In this document: one piece after another, positions 244 through 9,673 of the stretch | How positions within the stretch are numbered: position 1 is the first letter of the stretch | How the letters are laid out: every line of letters begins with the position of its first letter | Notes under the pieces: generated by a model | Database searches by the model: none | The model's input: only the letters and a program-made list of their open reading frames with translations | Told to the model about the DNA's origin: nothing | Made by a program: the position numbers and the translations under genes | DNA from: Paraspadella gotoi | Lineage: Eukaryota; Animalia; Chaetognatha | DNA length: 9,737 bases | Reading direction: 5' to 3' | Assembly: GCA_051294375.1 (NCBI GenBank) | Contig: JBJCIZ010000790.1 | Location: forward strand, 1-9,737

Positions 244-1222
244 GAGAGAGAGAAGAGAGAGAGAAGAGGTGAGAGAGCTGTCAGTTTTCCACTCTCGTTT
301 ATATAAAGAATAATCAAAATTTTTCAGAAAAAAAATTTCACGAAAATCTTCGGATGTAAATTTGGGATTTGTGTATTGAGAAATAAAAGCGCGGAAATAA
401 ATGGCGGTTGAGAAGAGAGAGAGAGAGTAGAGAGAGAGTAGAGAAAGAATAGAAGAGAAGCTGGACCGCCCTGCCAGAGCTGCACTCGTTTTTCGACGTA
501 ATCTGAGTAGGGAACGAACTCTTTTTTCCTTTCTAATATTTTTTTGTTACTCTTATCAAAAAAAAATTTTGTCCTCATCTTAAGTTTTTCTTGATGAATT
601 TTAGATTGTTCTTTTTTTTAAGAGAAACCAGAACCGAGGTCAAATTTCATATTTGCATATTTTAACTAATTTATAAATATTTATCCCAGACTCAAGATAT
701 ATTATTATTTAAAAAAGTAATAAAAATGATTATAATATTATACACTAAATATTAAATTTTACTTAATTAAAATTTTTAAAATTGTTTATGAAAATAACAA
801 AATAAAGTACTGTTTTAATTTGGAACAATACGTCTCTCATTCTCTGTAACCTCCTACTTTTAGATATAATTTGCCAACTAGTGGGCGACCGGTCAAAGTT
901 ACAGTAATACAACAAAAACAAAATTTTTTTTTTGTTAGCCAAAGTTATACTATGGCAATTAAAATTAATCCGCGCAATTGCCGGACATATAGTACGCTAC
1001 TATGTAGCAGCAGCAAGCTGATGTACATGTGACATTGCCTGGCATTTTTTTCTAAAAGGAATACATGTGAATTCCCTCGATGTGTAAACTTTGGTATTGT
1101 CATAGAGAAAAAAAAAATAAATGCGATAAATAAAGAGTTTTAGAAGGAAAAAAATAATAGGAATTTTCAAAAAAACGAAACGATCGTACACTTGAGAGAG
1201 AACCAGAGAGAAAGAAGAGAGA

Positions 1223-1258
<36 letters not shown>

Positions 1259-1601
1259 CTGAAAGCAGAGCCGGAACTCGTTTACTCGTTTACTCGTCGC
1301 CTGGTGAAAAAAAAAGTGACTAAAAAATTTTTTTTGTAAAAAAAAAAAAGAGAGAGAGAGAAGATAGAGCCGGAACTGCGTTTAAATGACGGAGGTGAAA
1401 AAAAGGCTGACTAAAAATTATTTTTGTACAAAAAAAGAGATAAGAAAGAGAGAAAGAGAGAGAGAGAACAGATAGGACAGAAAGATAGAGAGAGAGAGAG
1501 AGAGACGGAGAGAGAGGAGAGAGAGAGAGAGAGGCCGGAACTCGTTTACTCGTTACAAGTGAAAACTTTTTTTTTTGTAAAAAAAAAGAGAGAGAGAGAG
1601 C

Positions 1602-1638
<37 letters not shown>

Positions 1639-2062
1639 AAGGAGAGAGAGAGAGAGAGAGAGAAGAGCAGAGAGAAAGTTTTCCCGCCAACGATAACGCA
1701 ATATTAGGTCACTCTTGTTTATATCGGCGGTGATCTCGGTCAAGTTGATTTTTTTTATACATCGTAAACGTTTCGTGCCAATCAAAACAGCGTTATTAGG
1801 TCATGTTCCTCGACATTGTTTTACTCGTTGCCGCACCGCAACGGCCCACGAAATCCAGGTCAATAAAGTTTTATTCTTCAAACATTTTCTAAAAAAATTC
1901 CACGAAAATCTAGAATGTAAACTTTGGGATTTTGTATTGAGAAAGAAAGCGCGGAATAAATGGCGATAATAAAAGTTTTTAGAAGGAAAGAAATAATAAA
2001 GAATTTTCAAAAAACGGTGGTAAATACAAAGTGAAATAATTTTTTTTGTAAAAAAGAGAGAG

Positions 2063-2095
<33 letters not shown>

Positions 2096-2357
2096 GAGAG
2101 AGAGAGAAGAAGAGACGGAGGGAGACGGAGGGAGAGAGAGAGAGAGAGCCTCGAACTCGTTTTTTTTAAAACGATTTCAGAAAAGGCCCCGCGCCTGATC
2201 AAATATATATGTTTTTTAGAAGAAAAAATAATCAGACATTTTTCAAAAAACGAACGATCCACGCAAACAGAATCGCACACCAAAGAGAAAGACAGAGAGA
2301 AACTGAATCGTTTTTTAAACGATTCAGAAAGGGCCAGCGCCTAATAAAATATATACC
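213..2357. repeat. Complex satellite-like region of (GA)n tracts interleaved with repeated modules
   Basis: (GA)n tracts at ~213-277, 410-458, 1194-1254, 1436-1532, 1588-1675 and 2055-2147. Module 'cacgaaaatct..atgtaaa.tttgggatt..gtattgagaaa.aaagcgcggaa.taaatggcg' at ~321-407 and ~1885-1966, partial at ~1083-1180. Module 'gagccggaactcgttta...gtgaaaa...tttttgtaaaaaa' at ~1268, ~1366 and ~1532. The stretch ~540-1080 is AT-rich and not clearly part of the modules. Confidence 0.8.
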
Positions 2358-2916
2358 TATAATTAAAAAAATAAATAAAAGAAAGGCAAAAATGTTAGCA
2401 AGGTTTACAATTGGAAACTTTTCCAATTTTTTTCCAATCGCAGCCTCCTGTAAACAGATTTTAATTTTTATTTGTATTAAAATTAAGATAATAGCTTCTC
2501 ATTAAAAAATCCCTTTGAGTTCCCATTTTATTAGAAATATTAACAAAAAATTTTTTTGAAATTTCATCTTCAATATTTATACTACTGCAATATGTTAAAT
2601 TAGCTTAAAGCTTTCTATATACTAATTTGGATATTATAAATCAGTACTATAATCTCATTGGCATATTGCAGTAAAGTAATAATGAAATGGAAAATTCACA
2701 ACAAAAAAATACTTAAATCCAAATGTAATAAGAAAATATCAAAGGCTATTTCAAGATTGGAGAAGCCATATCTAAATTTTTAACTTACTATGAATGCACA
2801 CTTTGTTAAAACTTTATCATAATTCATAAATAATATTTTATTTTAAAAAAACGGTAAGTCACAGTCAAACCTATAAAAGCGTAAGTAGTTTTTTTATAAT
2901 GGGAAGAAACAGCGCT

Positions 2917-3012
2917 GACGGACGAGAACGACGACGACGCTACGTCAAACAAAGAGCTCACCCGATCAATATCAAGCCTGAACCGGCGAAGCCGGTCATG
3001 GCTTGATAACAA
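2917..3012 (+). mobile_element. Possible terminus of a Helentron/DINE-1-like non-autonomous element (GACG-like microsatellite plus terminal hairpin)
   Basis: gacggacgagaacgacgacgacg (2917-2939), then hairpin TATCAAGCC-TGA-a-CCGGC-gaa-GCCGG-TCA-t-GGCTTGATA (2970-3008). The other end was not located. Confidence 0.4.
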
Positions 3013-3984
3013 GTTTGAGCAATAGGGCGGGTTAAATTTGATCCCTTTTTATCATTAGAAGTTCTGTCATATAAAATTCATTTGTCCATCATATACAGGG
3101 TAGGGATTCAAAACTTAGAAAATCCGTATCACTTCTTCTTTTTTTTACTTTATGACGCATTGTGTGTATTAAAATAAAAAAATTGAATTGAAGATACTTA
3201 ACCAGACCTTGTTGTAACTATTAATGCAATGCGATAAGCACTGTTGCAAAAACGACACCTGCCACAGCACCCAAAAGAATCAGAGCTGCTCTTCATAAAC
3301 TCTTCTGAAAGATTGACCCATAGCTCATAAACGGTTTATCCTAGCCTATCAATATTTTGGTTAAAAGTCATATGGGTGCCCCCCTTTAAAACACCCTACT
3401 TAGCAAAGTTAAAAATAATTTGATATGGATAATATAAAGCCGGAAAATCCTTCGTCAAAAATTAAAATGTTGCTGCATCTGAAATCTTCATTTTTTTCAG
3501 CTGTAAACAATAAAGCCCTTTGTTACAGCCAGAGATGCCAGACGCGATCCGGGAGGCGGACTAGAATACGCGCGGAGGCGCATGTTTTTGAGGTGGCGAA
3601 ACTTGGACTAGAGTCAAAAATTGGGGAGAAGGGAGGCGAATGCGGAGACGCAAAAAACGTTTGCGCGTTCGCCCTCTTGTGCTTTTGTTTTTATAGGCGG
3701 AAAATCAAAAAGGTTTCGCTAAATTAAAACCTTTCTTTTGTTCCAAAAATTGTTCATTCTTTCAAATTTATTTATCAAAAAGAGAATATTCTCCTAGTTC
3801 TGTTTATATTTATTTTAAATAATAAGTTGTACATAAGCATAATTTTTATATCTTTTTTTAATACATCATTCACTCAATTTATTCCTTTTTTTAAACACAA
3901 AGCATAATTAATTAGTTAATTTATTCCTATGAATAATTTAATTAATCATTTAATGGTGGACTAAAATCCACCAACCGTTCATCA

Positions 3985-4059
3985 GCGGCCATTGGTGCCG
4001 GAGGCAAAGTCATTCGCCTCCCAACCCCAAAGGTCCGGGGTTCTAGCCCGGTGGTCGTC
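3985..4059 (+). promoter_or_regulatory. tRNA-derived (Gly-like, CCC at anticodon position) Pol III internal promoter in the LTR; not a functional tRNA
   Basis: Acceptor-like stem GCGGCCA/TGGTCGT, A-box-like TGGTGCCGGAGG (3993-4004), TCGCCTCCCA resembling the tRNA-Gly anticodon arm, T-arm/B-box GGTTCTAGCCC (4039-4049) within a CCGGG/CCCGG stem. D and anticodon stems are degenerate. Confidence 0.75.
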
Positions 4060-4061
4060 TG

Positions 4062-4142
4062 GCAGTTAAGAAGGGACGGGGCCGCTTTTAAACCCGCCTG
4101 TAACATGGTGTTAAAAGGCTGATCCGAAGCTCAGGGACTGGC
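4062..4142 (+). ncRNA. Twister ribozyme-like motif (P5-type), 5' LTR copy
   Basis: Core retained: GA-CGG, TAA, CCC-GC and loop CTGA-TCCGAAGC-TCAG. P1 and P3 carry indel noise. Predicted cut near 4089/4090. Confidence 0.65.
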
Positions 4143-4197
4143 TTATATTGAACGCGTTCCTGTCATTAAGCACTTATCAATAATTACTGCTCTTCAT

Positions 4198-4210
4198 TGG
4201 TGAGCCCGAC
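4198..4210 (+). promoter_or_regulatory. Primer-binding site, tRNA-Trp-like
   Basis: TGGTGAGCCCGAC matches 12/13 nt of the tRNA-Trp PBS TGGTGACCCCGAC and lies 1 nt after the LTR's CA end. Identical in copy 2 (6375-6387, -). Confidence 0.8.
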
Positions 4211-4242
4211 TTCCCGAACACAACAAGCAACAACAACATTTT

Positions 4243-4339
4243 CAGGCGACATGCCTCAACCTGGCGATGCACTTTCTGCCACAACACATCAGGCGACATG
4301 CCTCAACTTGGTGACGAACTTTTCCCACACAACAACAAT
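4243..4339 (+). repeat. Internal ~47-bp tandem duplication with small hairpins
   Basis: CAGGCGACATGCCTCAAC at 4243 and 4290, each followed by tgg.ga.g.acttt...cacaac. AGGC/GCCT stem. Also present in copy 2. Confidence 0.8.
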
Positions 4340-4371
4340 TCACTGAGAGATTGCAACAGACTTCTCCCTAC

Positions 4372-4382
4372 GGGAGGGGGGA
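4372..4382 (+). promoter_or_regulatory. Polypurine tract
   Basis: GGGAGGGGGGA directly abuts the TG of the 3' LTR. Equivalent tract at 6203-6212 (-). Confidence 0.85.
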
Positions 4383-4620
4383 TGTATGGTGGACTAAAAT
4401 CCACAACCGTTCATCAGCGTCTGCGCATTGGTGCCGGAGGCAAGTCACATTCGCCTCCCAACCCAGGTCCGGGTTCTAGCCGGGTGGTCGTCTGGCAGTT
4501 AAGAGGGACGGGGCGCTTAACCCGCCTGTAACATGGTGTTACAGCCTGATCCGAAGCTCAGGGACTGCTTATATTGAACGGTTCTGTCATTAACACTTAT
4601 CAATAATTACTGTCTCTTCA
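4383..4620 (+). repeat. 3' LTR of family A copy 1
   Basis: TG...CA termini; contains tRNA-like head (~4417-4491) and twister-like motif (4495-4568). Confidence 0.9.
4495..4568 (+). ncRNA. Twister ribozyme (P5-type permutation), best-preserved family A copy
   Basis: P5 GCAGTT 4495-4500/GACTGC 4563-4568; P2 GG/CC; conserved GA 4507-4508; T1 CGG 4509-4511/CCG 4551-4553; P1 GGCGCT 4512-4517; U^AA 4518-4520; T2 GC 4524-4525/GC 4556-4557; P3 CTGTAACA/TGTTACAG; P4 CCTGA/TCAGG closing loop U-CCG-AA-GC. This fits the twister U-NNN-AA-GC loop and GA-NNN/UAA pattern. Confidence 0.78.
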
Positions 4621-4691
4621 CATTTATTCATAATTCTATTCTATTTATGTTATTTATTTACTTTATCATTTAAGTTATCAAATAATTTTTT

Positions 4692-5245
4692 TATCTAGCA
4701 TCATATTTTTAAACTTGCACCTTTTTTAATTTGCATTATTATTTTAACTGGCATCATTTTTTCAACTGACATAATTTTTTTAACATGCATTATTTTTTAT
4801 TATATTATTTTACAACTTGAATCATATTTTTAATTTGCATTATTTTTTTAATCTATATCATTTTTTGAATTGTTTTTATCTTGGATCATTTTTTAACTTG
4901 CATCATTTTTTAAACTAGCTTCATTTGGAACTTTTATATTTTTTTTATTTGCATTATTTTTTTAACTTGCAATCATTTTTATTTCATTTCATTTTTTTTA
5001 ATTTGCATTATTTTTGAAAATTGCATCATTTTTTTAACTTCCATTATTTTTTTGATTTATAATATTTTTTGGATTTGCATTATTTTTTAACCTACATCAT
5101 TTTTTCATTTTAAATCATTTTTTATCTCGCATAATTTTTTGAATGCATAATTTTTTAACCTATATCATTTTTCTACTTGCATCATTTTTTTCAAACTGCA
5201 TCATTTTTTAAACTTGCCTTATTTTTTTAACTTGTATTATTTTTC
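4692..5245. repeat. Minisatellite, ~19-21 bp unit (approx. TAACTTGCATCATTTTTT)
   Basis: Roughly 25 degenerate tandem copies of aa(c/t)ttgcat(c/t)attttt. Confidence 0.88.
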
Positions 5246-5929
5246 TTTTTTGTAATTTTTAAAATTTATATTACCTTTTAACTTATATGGTTTTAATTTT
5301 TATATTAAAATTTATATTATCAATTTATTTATACAAACAATTCATAAAATTGATACAAACAATATAACAATTATCCATTTGTTGTTAGTTTGTGAAAAAA
5401 TTTATTTATTAATTAATTAATATATAAAAACTAATTAATTATTGTTTTAACTAATTAATTAATTATCGCTAATGATCGTCATCAGATCTGGCATTGTTAT
5501 TCTGATTGTTGAAATTTAGCGCCTCCAGCATCCCTGGTTACAGCCATACATATTAAACCCAAGGGTATTGCCTATTCATAAATGTCAAGAAATGGAATCT
5601 CAGTACTCTATAGTAGACTGCAGCAATGGTTTTTAACACAGTAGCAAAAATACAAAGAAATATTTTTTTATTTCATGCTGCAGTATATTGCATTATGCTA
5701 TTAACTTGATATTCTATACATAGAGTCCCAACTACATTAGTTATTGTTTTCCAAGCTTACAGAGATCGCACTCAGACACACTACAGTGTGAACTTTAAAA
5801 AAAAAATTTACAGCATCTTAAAATATCTTTTAAAAATCAAGGATAGAAATAACTTCTCAAACTGCTGCAGCTTAATGGCCATAGGGTAATAAAGATAACA
5901 TGTCCCAGTAAATATTTCTACATTGAGTT

Positions 5930-6694
5930 TGAAGAGACAGTAATTATTGTTATGTGTTAGTGACGAACCGTCAATATAAAGCAGTCCCTCGCAGCTTTCG
6001 GATAACAGGGCTCTGCTAACACACAACTGTTCACAGAAGGCGGTATTTGAAGCGCCAGTAGACGAGAGAGTACCTCAGGCCTCTAACTGCCAGACGACCG
6101 ACCGGTCGTAAGAACCCGGACCCTTTGGTTGGGAGGCGAATGACTTGCCTCCGGCACAATGGCCGCTGATGAACGGTTGGTTATTTTAGTCGCACCATAC
6201 CATCCCCCCTCCACGTAGGAAGGATGTCTGTTGCGTTCTTCAGTGAATTGTTGTTGTTGTGGACAAGTTCGTCAACCAAGTTGAGGCATGTCGCCTGATG
6301 TGTTGTGGGCAGAAAGTGGCATCGCCAGTGAGGCATGTTCGCTGAAAGTGTTGTTGTTGCTGTTGTGTTCGGAAGTCGGGCTCACCAATGAAGAGACCAG
6401 ACAATTTGATTGTTATGTTGTGCAGTAAGTGATGACAGACAACCTTTTCAATATTCACCCATCGCGTACCGTCCCTGAGGCAGTTCGCGAGGTTCATGGC
6501 TGTAACACACATGTGTACAGGCTGGGTTAATGCGCCGCGCGTCCGCCTCTTAACGTGCCCCAGACACGCACCGGGCTAGCGAACCCGGACCTTTGGTCCT
6601 TGGTTGGGAGGGCGTAATGACTTGCCGTTCCGGCACCAAATGCCGCTAGAACTACCGGTGAGTGGTGGCATTTTTATGTGTCCCAGACCATTTA
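5930..6694 (-). mobile_element. Family A TRIM copy 2 (reverse orientation, noisier)
   Basis: On the minus strand: 5' LTR ~6694-6389, PBS 6387-6375, internal duplicated hairpins, PPT 6212-6203, 3' LTR 6202-5930 ending GTCTCTTCA. tRNA-like heads at ~6564-6646 and 6094-6166; twister-like regions at 6471-6558 and 5981-6090. No clear TSD. Confidence 0.87.
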
Positions 6695-8191
6695 AATATT
6701 CTTCATTTGCTCTCTCTTTAAATTTTCTCCTTTATTAAGCATAATAAAGGGTTGCTTCCAGACAATATATTCATTGGCTTCTTGGGCATGCCTAACAAAT
6801 AGAGAGCTGGATTAGTTGTCTCGCTGTATTAACACGCACTTCTTATATAGCCAATGCACGGTTTTCACCGAACCTCAGAATAACCTATTTATGTCCTATT
6901 CTTAATAAACTTCATTAATTATAATAACACTACCTGACCTGAGGAATAGCTTAAGCCCATATTTTAGGTAGTCGGTTTTATGCTGGCAAAATCCGGCGCG
7001 GAGCATCATCCACAATGTTCAAGCCAACGTTTCATACTTCTTGGTACTCACATCTATCCGTGAATATTAGAGGATCAAGGCTGACGTCATGATTGTCGTT
7101 TAGACACGACGTAGCTGAAAAGAATATAGACGAAACACTCTTACAAGACGAAAAGACATCAGTGCAATATTTGCTCTGATCATGTAAGCTTAGATGGAAT
7201 CAAATAATAAAGTACGCAGAAGTAAATATAGATTCATCTTTAGTCTATGCGGAGCCGCCGATTCAGCACCGCGCATGTACACAGAGCATGAAGGTCTATT
7301 AAGGGTTCGTCACGTGTTTCTAATTTCCTAAGTTTGATTACTACCGCTGTACTTATCCAACTATTGTAAACTATCACTCATTTTTATAACTAGTGAAGCC
7401 ACAGCTATAACATGTGAAGTATCTTAAATATTTAATGCATAGGCAAATTGGAAAAAAAGAAAATTTGTAAAAAAATTTTTTATTCTTTGAGAACGGATTC
7501 AGATAGCCCATTTGAAAAAGTATAGATGCTGGTGTTCTTCATATCTCGGATGAACTAAGTGGTACATAATTGAAAAACCCCTTAAAAATTTATCATCATC
7601 ATCATCAATACCGAGTAATTTTTATAGTTTTGTCTAATTTAACCCCATAAAAACATAAAAATTGAATTCCTTGTAAATATATTCTTTATTATTTTTTTTA
7701 AAGCTCTACCCGAATCCGCTTTTTAAAAAATTCTGAATTTGAAATATAAGATTTTCATGATTTATAGTAATATCGATAAACTTAAAATGCTTCTATGTCA
7801 TAACATACATAAAATCTTAATTTTTTTTTTTATCCCACCAGGAATGCTTTTATCCGTTATTTATATGACGAACTCTTAGTTTTGCCTTTGTTCCGCCTAC
7901 AATAATTAACAGAAGGTAACAGCTAATCAGATGATAAATGACGAAATAAATTCTTTTCCAAAATTCAATTGTGATCAAATAACACGATTGACCATACCAA
8001 ACCAATGGCTTAGCGCATATACATGTAAATCGTGCTTGCAAGGGATTAAACTGGAACTGTTACTATAGAACAAACCCAAATATCTCGATTTCTTACTATT
8101 ATGTAGATTAGTTAAAGCTTTCTTATTTATTTATAAACCATTGCTAAAATACTTTACAAATAATCGCATCAAATTTAATAAATAGAGATAT

Positions 8192-8408
8192 TGAAGAGCA
8201 GCAATATATGTCGGAATATGCTGTTAATGACAGAACCGAAATATAAGGGAGGCCGCAGTCTCCTACCTCTGGAGGCTTTGGCATCAAGGACACTGTACAT
8301 CCACCATGCTTAAGACGAGGCGGAGATTGAGAGCGCCCCGTCCCCCTTCTTACCTGCTAGGCGACCAACCAGGGGTGTAGGGAAACCCGGGACCTTTGGT
8401 TGGGAAGG
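8192..8408 (-). mobile_element. 5'-truncated family A LTR (copy 3)
   Basis: Minus strand reads cccaaccaaaggtcccgggtt...ggtcgcct...aagaagggggacggggcgc...gactgc...cggttctgtcattaac...ctgctcttca, colinear with the LTR from the anticodon arm to the CA end. Confidence 0.8.
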
Positions 8409-8433
8409 ATTCTTAGTACCAAACCGATTAGCA

Positions 8434-8506
8434 TAATCTTGTCCTTGACTAAGGTGCGAGTGAGTTGCGGTTAAGGCCTCCATGCAACACATCTCAGACA
8501 AGAATA
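8434..8506 (-). ncRNA. Degenerate twister-like motif, family B downstream copy
   Basis: Direct repeat of 8827-8889. Retains TGG-AGGCCT-TAA and P5 (TCTTGTC/GACAAGA); L4 and P4 are corrupted. Confidence 0.5.
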
Positions 8507-8826
8507 ATACACAGCTATAAACAAGGCTCTATGGCAATTAACACTTATTTCGACTCAAAAATCTCTCTCTACCGTCCTTGTTTACTTCAACTCCCATGTC
8601 AAACCTGGCCCTTCTATCCCTATCAATAAGTAGTATATGATATATTCATTATGCTAAAGCGATGTCTTTATCAATATTGAGAGTATGAAAGACACACGCC
8701 TTAAGTATCTAGAATGTCGCACGGAGAATACTATATTGTACTTCGCACTAGCATCAATATACAAAAAGCTGAGTTTTATGAAATTGGTACAAATAAAAAT
8801 ATTATCTATTCAATTAATAAATAAGC

Positions 8827-8889
8827 TATCTTGTCCCTGACTTTGGACAGGCTTTGGTGTTTTAAGGCCTCCATCACACTTAAAAGATA
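8827..8889 (-). ncRNA. Twister ribozyme (P5-type), family B
   Basis: Minus strand: TATCTT-tt-aa-GTGT-GA-TGG-AGGCCT-TAA-AAC-AC-CAAAG-CCTG-T-CCA-AA-GT-CAGG-gac-AAGATA. P5 TATCTT/AAGATA, T1 TGG/CCA, T2 AC/GT, P4 CCTG/CAGG, minimal P3, imperfect P2. Predicted cut between 8864 and 8863. Confidence 0.72.
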
Positions 8890-8972
8890 ATAACATTAAT
8901 AATAATATTCATTAATTAATCCATTAATTTACTAATTAAAACATTTATGAGTAAGCATAAATAATAAATTTT

Positions 8973-9673
8973 AAAGTCAACTTGACTTTGATTTTTTTAA
9001 TACAAACTCATTTCCACTCCTCTATTCCATCAAAACTTTATGCTGCTCAATCACACACTTTCCTACCTACACACAAAATTTCATCTCAATCTATCCATTC
9101 AATTTTAAATAATTTGAGTAATTATGAGTTGAAATTAGTAAAAAGATTCAAGTAATTGTGACTTATATTTTTTTCCATTTAAACTAATTTTCACTCGCAC
9201 GATTCCATCGAAACTTTATATCCAGGTTCGTCACACACTTTTCCACCAACACACAAAATTTCATCTCAATCTATCCATCCAATTATTATTAATTAGTGTA
9301 ATTATGGGTTAAAATTAATAAAAAGATTCAAGTAATTGTGACTTATATTTTTTTCTATTTAAACTCATTTCCACTCGCACGATTCCATCGAAACTTTATA
9401 TCCAGCTCAATCACACACTTTCCTACCCAAGTACCCATACACAAAATTTTATTCCAATGCAACCATCCAATCTAGAGTACTTGGAGTTTTTGCTAAGGGA
9501 GAACGGACTGACAGAAAGACAGACGGACGGACGGACATCATTTTTTTTTTAATAATTTATCATAATTTGATGTTCTGACATGATTTAAGTTAATGCCCGA
9601 CAAGATTGAGGGGGCGGACCGACAAAGTGAATTATAGAGTCGGAATCTGCTGATAAGCAGATCCCACTAAAAA
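8973..9673 (+). mobile_element. Helentron-associated non-autonomous element (HINE/DINE-1-like) with internal satellite
   Basis: Palindrome AAAGTCAA-c-TTGACTTT (8973-8989), ~180-bp tandem repeats, GACA/GACG microsatellite (9503-9537), subterminal AAGTGAATTATA (9625-9636), terminal hairpin with core ATCTGCT-gata-AGCAGAT (within 9638-9668), then an A5 run. The left boundary is uncertain. Confidence 0.7.
9004..9471. repeat. Tandem repeat, ~180-bp unit, about 2.6 copies
   Basis: Units start at 9004, 9181 and 9361 (aaactcatttccactc...tcacacactttcc...acacaaaatttcatctcaatctatcca...gtgacttatatttt). Confidence 0.93.

What the first reader, a model, noticed from the sequence alone, without database searches (positions are those of the whole stretch)
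4512..4517. P1 reduced to a 6-nt palindrome in both families: possible dimeric twister
Seen: between T1 and UAA there are only 6 nt, GGCGCT in family A (self-complementary with terminal G-U pairs) and AGGCCT in family B (perfect palindrome, 8865-8870 and 8474-8479). This is too short for a stable hairpin but gives a 6-bp duplex between two copies. Known analogy: minimal hammerheads with a short stem III and palindromic loop cleave as dimers. Inference: cleavage may need both repeats on one transcript, restricting processing to full-length RNA.
Basis: inference. Interest (0 to 1): 0.88.

Follow-up and report, generated by a model that had tools for sequence, protein, structure and literature searches.

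The report
Palindrome-linked twister ribozyme in LTR retroelement
Two repeat families in this DNA carry a predicted twister self-cutting RNA whose first helix is shrunk to a six-letter self-complementary linker, so it likely cuts best when the two copies in one transcript pair up; one family sits in the terminal repeats of a small non-coding element that is likely a mobile retroelement, and cutting is untested.

Summary
GGCGCT (4512-4517) and AGGCCT (8865-8870) lie between pseudoknot strand T1 and the UAA cleavage triplet of type-P5 twister-like folds. They are the majority state in three public runs of the same organism, not noise of this error-rich window. The copy at 8474-8479 is not in an intact motif. 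The linker equals one base pair plus a palindromic tetraloop, the geometry of axolotl hammerheads that cut far better as dimers. Among phage comparators, 16 of 18 type-P5 parses have 14-25-nt P1 hairpins. Chance for both inner palindromes is about 0.004-0.02, post hoc, from only two possibly related families. New here: family A is a 670-bp non-coding LTR element (4-bp target duplication, primer-binding site, polypurine tract) with a twister in each LTR, a twister counterpart of plant hammerhead retrozymes. Against an obligate dimer: P1 is dispensable in open-ended twisters, and a tetraloop can close the monomer. Dimer-assisted cleavage about 0.5, strict dependence about 0.3. Nothing was shown to be transcribed or cleaved. 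New variant of a known kind; interest 0.72.

The parts
4512..4517 (+). P1 linker of motif A2, GGCGCT: one G-U pair plus palindromic tetraloop GCGC, or a 6-bp duplex between copies
   Evidence: majority state in runs X1, X5, X9
4494..4569 (+). Type-P5 twister-like motif A2: P5 4494-4500/4563-4569; P2 4503,4505,4506/4521-4523 (A4504 bulged); G4507-A4508; T1 4509-4511/4551-4553; UAA 4518-4520 (predicted cut 4518/4519); T2 4524-4525/4556-4557; P3 4526-4532/4538-4544; P4 4545-4549/4558-4562; L4 4550-4557
   Evidence: all pairs standard; descriptor hit; not detected by Rfam
4061..4143 (+). Motif A1 in the 5' LTR (linker 4080-4088 reads 9 nt; predicted cut 4089/4090), probably carrying read errors
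3951..4196 (+). 5' LTR-like direct repeat (starts TA, ends CA)
4385..4620 (+). 3' LTR-like direct repeat; loose ends at 4620 in X1, X5, X9, X10 and before 4385 in X9, with varying flanks
4198..4210 (+). Primer-binding-site-like 13-mer starting TGG one base behind the LTR's CA; same 13-mer at 6375-6387 (minus)
   Evidence: shares its first six letters with the site of CsRn1_Cv1, described as complementary to tRNA-Trp; cognate tRNA not tested
4372..4382 (+). Polypurine tract two bases before the 3' LTR; also at 6203-6212 (minus)
3947..3950 (+). Left 4-bp target-site duplication CATT
4621..4624 (+). Right 4-bp target-site duplication CATT
5930..6690 (-). Second family-A element (copies A3, A4), many extra letters; linker GGCGCT at 6051-6056; no matching target duplication
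8190..8420 (-). Noisy or decayed partial family-A repeat; linker GGCGCT at 8332-8337
8828..8892 (-). Type-P5 twister-like motif B1, no P3: G8875-A8874; T1 strand 8873-8871; linker AGGCCT 8870-8865; UAA 8864-8862 (predicted cut 8864/8863); P4 8851-8848/8839-8836; L4 8847-8840
   Evidence: Rfam RF02684 24.8 bits, E 0.09, below gathering 37.6; descriptor hit; high-copy family
8430..8510 (-). B2: degenerate relative of B1 that keeps AGGCCT (8474-8479) and TAA but has no intact L4
   Evidence: no cover in 4 of 4 runs

Best explanation
The six-letter palindrome is the shrunken first helix of a predicted twister ribozyme that sits in both terminal repeats of a likely non-autonomous LTR retroelement, and it likely lets the two ribozyme copies on one transcript swap strands and cut each other out efficiently. 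Shown: the sequence, all pairings of the fold, the two repeats about 430 nt apart, the primer-site, purine-tract and target-duplication hallmarks, and the conservation of the linker across the family. Inferred: in a two-LTR transcript linker 1 pairs with linker 2 (6 bp). The 3' half of copy 1 then folds with the 5' half of copy 2 and vice versa, giving two full twister cores. Double cleavage would release a ~430-nt unit with 5'-OH and cyclic-phosphate ends that a host ligase would circularise, as in plant retrozymes. The circle holds only one motif, so it would cut slowly and persist as template for a helper LTR retrotransposon. Family B likely uses the same trick in a different repeat whose type is unresolved.
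For: Every twister core element pairs in A2. A descriptor finds 2 motifs in the window against 1 in 300 block-wise dinucleotide shuffles. A and B differ by compensatory changes in T1 (C-G to U-A), T2 (G-C to A-U) and the first P2 pair (P2 of B pairs with the majority letter at 8860, 97-100% of depth). In A the two changes above 30% in all three runs keep a P5 pair (4494) or lie in the P3 loop (4534). The linker's middle pair swaps CG to GC between families and stays self-complementary. 16 of 18 phage type-P5 parses have 14-25-nt hairpins, so this linker is not the norm. Swapped dimer -53.3 vs 2 x -20.8 kcal/mol; P1 contributes 8.6 (pseudoknots not modelled). The monomer has a competing misfold 8.2 kcal/mol below the catalytic-type fold. 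One pair plus a palindromic tetraloop is the helix III of axolotl hammerheads that cut much better as dimers (PMC7229834, passages). A run-X11 contig joins family B head to tail with about a 320-nt period.
Against: Twisters lacking P1 cut at almost wild-type rate (PMC5408937), and P1 defects did not lower cleavage in the large CHiTA screen (PMC11662667 section 32), though that screen used type-P1 forms with open ends only. A tetraloop can span one base pair, so the monomer is not sterically excluded (established knowledge). Only two families, alike in and just behind the motif, so perhaps not independent. Within families no palindrome-preserving variant was seen. L095 is a phage parse with a 6-nt non-palindromic linker, though Rfam gives it no hit. 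The swapped fold is still 4.7 kcal/mol above two misfolded monomers, and the cofold minimum (-69.2) uses a P3 swap, not P1. Covariance models give weak or no support: B1 E 0.09, A2 none, own model E 0.35 and 1.2. The released unit folds no better than shuffles (z 0.68). The LTR starts TA, not TG, and only 1 of 2 elements has a target duplication.
Confidence: 0.5

Rival explanations
1. The twister works as a monomer. P1 has shrunk to one pair and a tetraloop because it is dispensable, and the palindrome is a leftover of a collapsed GC-rich stem or chance. Each LTR copy cuts on its own and releases the same unit.
For: P1-less twisters are active; P1 defects are tolerated; natural variants lacking P1 exist in Schistosoma Perere-3 (PMC8501958, passages). 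Deleting the inside of a hairpin leaves self-complementary remnants (inference). Local folding during transcription favours the monomer (inference).
Against: Both inner tetramers are perfect palindromes with a swapped middle pair (p about 0.004-0.02). The published P1-less forms have free ends, not a closed 6-nt tether. The monomer has a more stable misfold.
Confidence: 0.33
2. The palindrome is selected, but as a kissing loop that dimerises element RNAs for packaging or template switching, like retroviral dimer-initiation loops (recalled); catalysis does not depend on it.
For: The monomer's lowest-energy fold shows GCGC in an exposed loop; family A has LTR-element hallmarks.
Against: The palindrome sits exactly in P1 register in two repeats with different surroundings; family B shows no LTR hallmarks in the window.
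Confidence: 0.07
3. The fold is not an active ribozyme, or is active only with protein help; the repeats spread without self-cleavage.
For: No Rfam hit at gathering score; P2 has a bulge; no cleavage or transcript evidence; eight of nine Xenopus hammerhead retrozyme dimers did not cut in vitro (bioRxiv 10.64898/2026.07.22.740005, passage).
Against: All catalytic positions and both pseudoknots are present in both families with compensatory changes, and frequent variants spare the core.
Confidence: 0.1

Closest known systems
Type-P5 twister ribozyme (Rfam RF02684, clan CL00120)
   Same: Order P2'-GA-T1'-P1-UAA-P2-T2-P4-L4 with ends in P5; conserved G, A, UAA, L4 pattern; both pseudoknots. A 3-bp P2 and the AC/AAGU form of T2 also occur in phage examples L050 and L053.
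   Different: P1 is 6 nt, not a 14-25-nt hairpin; A carries P3 and P5 together; T1 is CGG/CCG or UGG/CCA; below Rfam's cut-off.
Dimeric type-I hammerheads with minimal helix III (axolotl HHR_Amex1, newt satellite, Penelope-like elements)
   Same: One base pair capped by a palindromic tetraloop, in repeats a few hundred bases apart (PMC7229834; PMC6765202).
   Different: Unrelated ribozyme class. Helix III matters for hammerhead activity, whereas twister P1 is reported dispensable. Dimer dependence is shown there and untested here.
Plant LTR retrozymes (PMC4918200)
   Same: Non-coding, ribozyme in each LTR, primer-binding site, polypurine tract, 4-bp target duplication.
   Different: Twister instead of type-III hammerhead; smaller (LTR about 236 bp, unit about 430 nt); primer site Trp-like rather than Met; LTR starts TA; unit not unusually stable; circles not shown; host probably not a flowering plant (inference from composition, not tested).
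T-variant twisters of Schistosoma mansoni Perere-3 (PMC8501958)
   Same: Twister with weakened or absent P1 in a retroelement.
   Different: Those are single type-P1 motifs at the 5' end of a non-LTR element, with P1 made partly by the target duplication; no closed linker, and the words dimer and palindrome do not occur in that text.

Membership tests
Twister ribozyme, type P5 | L1 with conserved G and A on one side and N-A-A cleavage triplet on the other | tested here: met
   GA 4507-08 and TAA 4518-20; GA 8875-74 and TAA 8864-62
Twister ribozyme, type P5 | Pseudoknots T1 (3 bp) and T2 (2 bp) to L4 | tested here: met
   All Watson-Crick in A2 and B1, compensatory between families
Twister ribozyme, type P5 | Stems P2 and P4 with 8-nt L4 | tested here: met
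   P4 5 bp (A), 4 bp (B); P2 3 bp with one bulge in A, in B only with the majority letter at 8860
Twister ribozyme, type P5 | Termini in P5; no downstream P2'-GA-T1' strand that would make it type P1 | tested here: met
   7-bp P5 in A2; no such strand behind P4 in the sequence
Twister ribozyme, type P5 | P1 closed as an intramolecular hairpin | tested here: not met
   At most 1 bp plus 4-nt loop, +5.6 kcal/mol; hence filed as a variant
Twister ribozyme, type P5 | Rfam RF02684 gathering score 37.6 | tested here: not met
   B1 24.8 bits; A2 no hit
Twister ribozyme, type P5 | Site-specific self-cleavage | not testable with these tools
   needs in vitro transcription
LTR retrozyme / TRIM-size non-autonomous LTR element (family A) | Two direct repeats around a short non-coding core, ribozyme in each | tested here: met
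   3951-4196 and 4385-4620; only ORF of 60 aa or more in the element is one of 77 codons
LTR retrozyme / TRIM-size non-autonomous LTR element (family A) | Primer-binding site behind the 5' LTR and polypurine tract before the 3' LTR | tested here: met
   2 of 2 elements in the window; cognate tRNA not identified
LTR retrozyme / TRIM-size non-autonomous LTR element (family A) | 4-bp target-site duplication and TG...CA ends | tested here: inconclusive
   CATT in 1 of 2 elements; 3' end CA fixed, 5' end reads TA
LTR retrozyme / TRIM-size non-autonomous LTR element (family A) | Ribozyme is a hammerhead | tested here: not met
   no hammerhead hit at E up to 1; the motif is twister-like
LTR retrozyme / TRIM-size non-autonomous LTR element (family A) | Abundant linear and circular RNA monomers | not testable with these tools
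   only contigs were served, no raw RNA reads
Dimer-dependent self-cleaving ribozymes | Closing helix of one pair plus palindromic tetraloop | tested here: met
   2 of 2 families
Dimer-dependent self-cleaving ribozymes | Higher rate in two-motif than one-motif transcripts | not testable with these tools
   bench test
Penelope-like element pseudo-LTR (considered for family B) | Attached reverse transcriptase / GIY-YIG frame, partial tandems, 5' truncation | tested here: inconclusive
   loose ends at several 5' places and a head-to-tail contig; no long frame in the window

The most novel reading that the evidence does not exclude
A natural twister ribozyme that is switched on only by strand-swapped pairing of two copies through a palindromic mini-P1, built into the LTRs of a new class of twister retrozymes. 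The two-LTR precursor cuts itself, while the single-motif circle is stable. This would be convergence on the dimeric-hammerhead trick in an unrelated ribozyme class, and would explain why P1 is conserved although dispensable in open-ended constructs.
Probability: 0.3. Interest if true: 0.87.

Novelty: new variant of a known kind. Interest (0 to 1): 0.72.

Why it matters
Dimer-dependent cleavage is described for hammerheads; I found no natural twister example and no LTR retrozyme with a twister in eight full-text searches. It offers a cheap, decisive test of what P1 does in a closed type-P5 twister, a form that the large screen did not cover. It gives a simple answer to how a ribozyme-made circle avoids cutting itself. 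It shows that LTR retrozymes are not tied to hammerheads. It also implies that Rfam misses high-copy eukaryotic twisters. A two-copy-gated ribozyme would be a useful switch.

Tried and rejected
No own genome is held, so copies could not be aligned one by one. No RNA holder listed; X9 is only guessed to be RNA and was not used on expression. Searches for more short-linker families: viral contigs 21 loci, 16, 120 of about 220, 22, 0; genome contigs 16; metagenome contigs 3, all lacking L4 in GC-rich DNA. None gave a genuine short-P1 type-P5 twister. Apparent ones were dropped: L011/L016/L048/L052, L005, L025 and L178 are type-P1 motifs read across a neighbour; L004, L020 and L183 have a longer P1 on a better parse; L095 remains unexplained (no Rfam hit). 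Only 7 loci were scanned with Rfam. A model built from 17 phage motifs found B1 only at E 0.35 and A2 only in part. A type-P1 reading of A2 with a downstream strand was rejected from the sequence. Within-family conservation cannot test the palindrome: too few polymorphic sites. A text search for the primer-site letters was uninformative. No tRNA gene in the window; the bacterial promoter scan was at chance level. Look-ups of earlier findings by sequence and place, and one by words, were empty. Lunse et al. 2017 is not held; the CHiTA supplement could not be read; Roth et al. 2014 and its alignments were not seen and may hold short-P1 type-P5 examples.

Full report
What was checked. The window is AT-rich, microsatellite-rich DNA without long reading frames, most likely eukaryotic (inference). 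It is error-prone: relative to copy A2, copies A1, A4 and A3 have 17, 49 and 81 extra letters but only 3, 5 and 5 mismatches (end gaps are included in these counts). I therefore laid contigs of public runs on the motifs. For A2, runs X1, X5 and X9 gave 10386, 1378 and 646 records (X10 two); the only listed change in the linker is C>T at the CpG 4514 (5.5, 0.6, 0.2%), like other CpG sites of the motif (4509: 6.9%, 4553: 13% in X1); three indel rows were not shown. For B1 (5207, 1045, 353, 3 records) nothing at or above 5% is listed in the linker. Both are high-copy families and the linkers are their majority state. The hexamer at 8474-8479 lies in a degenerate relative without L4 and without cover in four of four runs.

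Is it a twister? In A2 every element pairs: P5 7 bp, P2 3 bp with one bulge, P3 7 bp, P4 5 bp, T1 and T2 Watson-Crick. B1 lacks P3 and has compensatory T1 and T2 pairs; its P2 pairs with the letter that 97-100% of depth shows at 8860. My descriptor finds these two motifs in the window and one hit in 300 shuffles; it was written after seeing them. Of nine variable positions listed in 4494-4569, the two above 30% in all three runs keep a P5 pair or lie in the P3 loop; minor ones at 4494 (G>T) and 4553 break a pair. Covariance models are weak: Rfam RF02684 gives B1 24.8 bits, E 0.09, and A2 nothing; a model from 17 phage motifs gives E 0.35 and 1.2. I put an intact twister fold at about 0.9; cleavage is untested.

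How unusual is the linker? Of 18 distinct parses with a fully paired P2, 16 have hairpins of 14-25 nt; one is a type-P1 motif misread; one, L095, has a 6-nt non-palindromic linker and no Rfam support. Ten type-P5 hits in L050, L053 and L004 were confirmed by Rfam, nine above the cut-off; the other comparators rest on my parse. So the 6-nt linker is outside the phage range, but I found no third short-linker family, because the collections hold little eukaryote DNA.

What the palindrome can and cannot say. A two-base loop is unfavourable, so a monomer can form only the outer pair with a tetraloop (+5.6 kcal/mol). The inner tetramers GCGC and GGCC are both perfect palindromes, and the middle pair is swapped. 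Chance is 0.064-0.066 each: 0.004 if independent, about 0.02 if related. A and B align only over the motif and a few bases behind it (0 of 500 shuffles as good; flanks not significant), so relatedness is open. This is suggestive, post hoc, n = 2.

The setting. Family A is a 670-bp element: CATT, repeat 3951-4196 ending CA, one base, a TGG-starting 13-mer, a short core, a purine tract, repeat 4385-4620, CATT. A second element at 5930-6690 (minus) has the same 13-mer and tract but no matching duplication. Loose ends in the runs fix the 3' end at 4620 and, in X9, the 5' end at 4385. This is the plan of plant LTR retrozymes (PMC4918200, passages) with a twister in place of the hammerhead. The primer site shares six letters with that of CsRn1_Cv1, described as tRNA-Trp-primed with 4-bp duplications typical of its group (PMC3630058, passages and one supplement passage); the helper is a lead only. 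The LTR starts TA rather than TG. Family B joins head to tail with a period near 320 nt in one X11 contig and has loose ends at several 5' places; it may be a Penelope-like pseudo-LTR derivative (inference; Naiads lack canonical hammerheads, PMC8557442, passages).

Mechanism. On a two-LTR transcript the swapped arrangement is nested: 5' half 1 with 3' half 2, linker with linker, 3' half 1 with 5' half 2. For two unchanged A2 motifs it scores -53.3 kcal/mol, -44.7 without P1, against -20.8 per catalytic-type monomer (-16.9 with the one-pair hairpin) and -29.0 for a monomer misfold that pairs 4510-4512 with 4521-4523 (pseudoknots and magnesium not modelled). The swap thus narrows the gap to the misfold from 8.2 to about 2.4 kcal/mol per core but does not close it, and the cofold minimum uses a P3 swap instead. 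The closest precedent has the same geometry: axolotl HHR_Amex1, a single pair capped by a palindromic tetraloop, weak as monomer and efficient in dimeric constructs (PMC7229834, passages; review PMC6765202, passages). Double cleavage would free a 429-nt unit in this window (4090-4518); it folds no better than shuffles (z 0.68). A circle would carry one motif and would be stable if monomers are slow (inference).

Against. Twisters without P1 cut at almost wild-type rate (PMC5408937, passages); P1 defects did not matter in CHiTA (PMC11662667, section 32 and passages), which tested type-P1 forms only; Schistosoma variants lack P1 (PMC8501958, passages). None of these has a closed six-base tether, which is why the question stays open. 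I give dimer-assisted cleavage 0.5 (strict dependence 0.3), independent monomers 0.33, inactive 0.10, packaging-type kissing loop 0.07.

Literature. Searches listed no natural dimeric twister and no twister LTR retrozyme; two searches concerned the primer site. Besides those named, I saw passages only of PMC7761336 (mentions truncated twisters in RTE elements, in preparation), bioRxiv 10.1101/2022.07.19.500677, PMC3587641, PMC10085705, PMC13725137 and bioRxiv 10.64898/2026.07.22.740005. Roth 2014 and Lunse 2017 were not read, subscription papers are not covered, and unseen supplements (Roth alignments, CHiTA tables) may hold short-P1 examples. Twister nucleotide roles and retroviral dimer loops are partly recalled. 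Earlier AI notes on other genomes describe type-P5 twisters with an abnormal or self-complementary P1 in Naiad elements; I could not see their sequences and count them as leads, not support.

Verdict. Real feature; new variant of a known kind; interest 0.72. Most novel reading: a dimer-gated twister in a new class of LTR retrozymes, probability 0.3, interest 0.87.

Noticed in passing
window 4526-4544: P3 of family A is a near-perfect 19-nt palindrome around one central G; the common 4534 T>C variant (38-54%) turns a U-G into a C-G pair that can form only between two molecules. Folding programs pair P3 of one copy with P3 of the other. Family B has no P3.
   Followed up: partly
window 3951 and 4385; about 6690 (minus): The LTR-like repeat starts TATGG, not TG, although TG precedes it behind the purine tract; unusual for integrase-made ends.
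   Followed up: partly
window 4226-4346: The core of element A holds CAA-rich runs and two copies of a ~25-nt repeat; role unknown.
   Followed up: no
window 4340-4660 and 8425-8960, runs X1 vs X5 and X9: CpG-type C>T and G>A changes are several times more frequent in X1 than in X5 and X9, pointing to methylation-driven decay of old copies or to assembly depth.
   Followed up: no
window 8750-8896, run X11: A 354-letter contig of a biofilm metagenome run joins family B head to tail (period about 320 nt).
   Followed up: partly
window 1190-2310: GA microsatellites each followed by a short conserved motif, repeated at least five times.
   Followed up: no
window 4670-5280 and 9040-9490: An 18-bp T-rich minisatellite and a 180-bp tandem repeat (2.5 copies).
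   Followed up: no
window 2910-3050: Short GC-richer stretch that looks like a coding fragment; not searched.
   Followed up: no
L050 (27-2970), L053, L041: Phage contigs with clusters of type-P5 twisters: six in 3 kb in L050, three in L053, at least three in L041.
   Followed up: partly
L052 1460-1559; L025 145-197 and 609-661: Two type-P1 twisters directly back to back in a phage contig; two equal-scoring type-P1 twisters 464 bp apart in an archaeal genome bin.
   Followed up: no
L095 (minus, around 185): Twister-like parse with a 6-nt non-palindromic linker and no Rfam hit; chance or a counter-example.
   Followed up: partly
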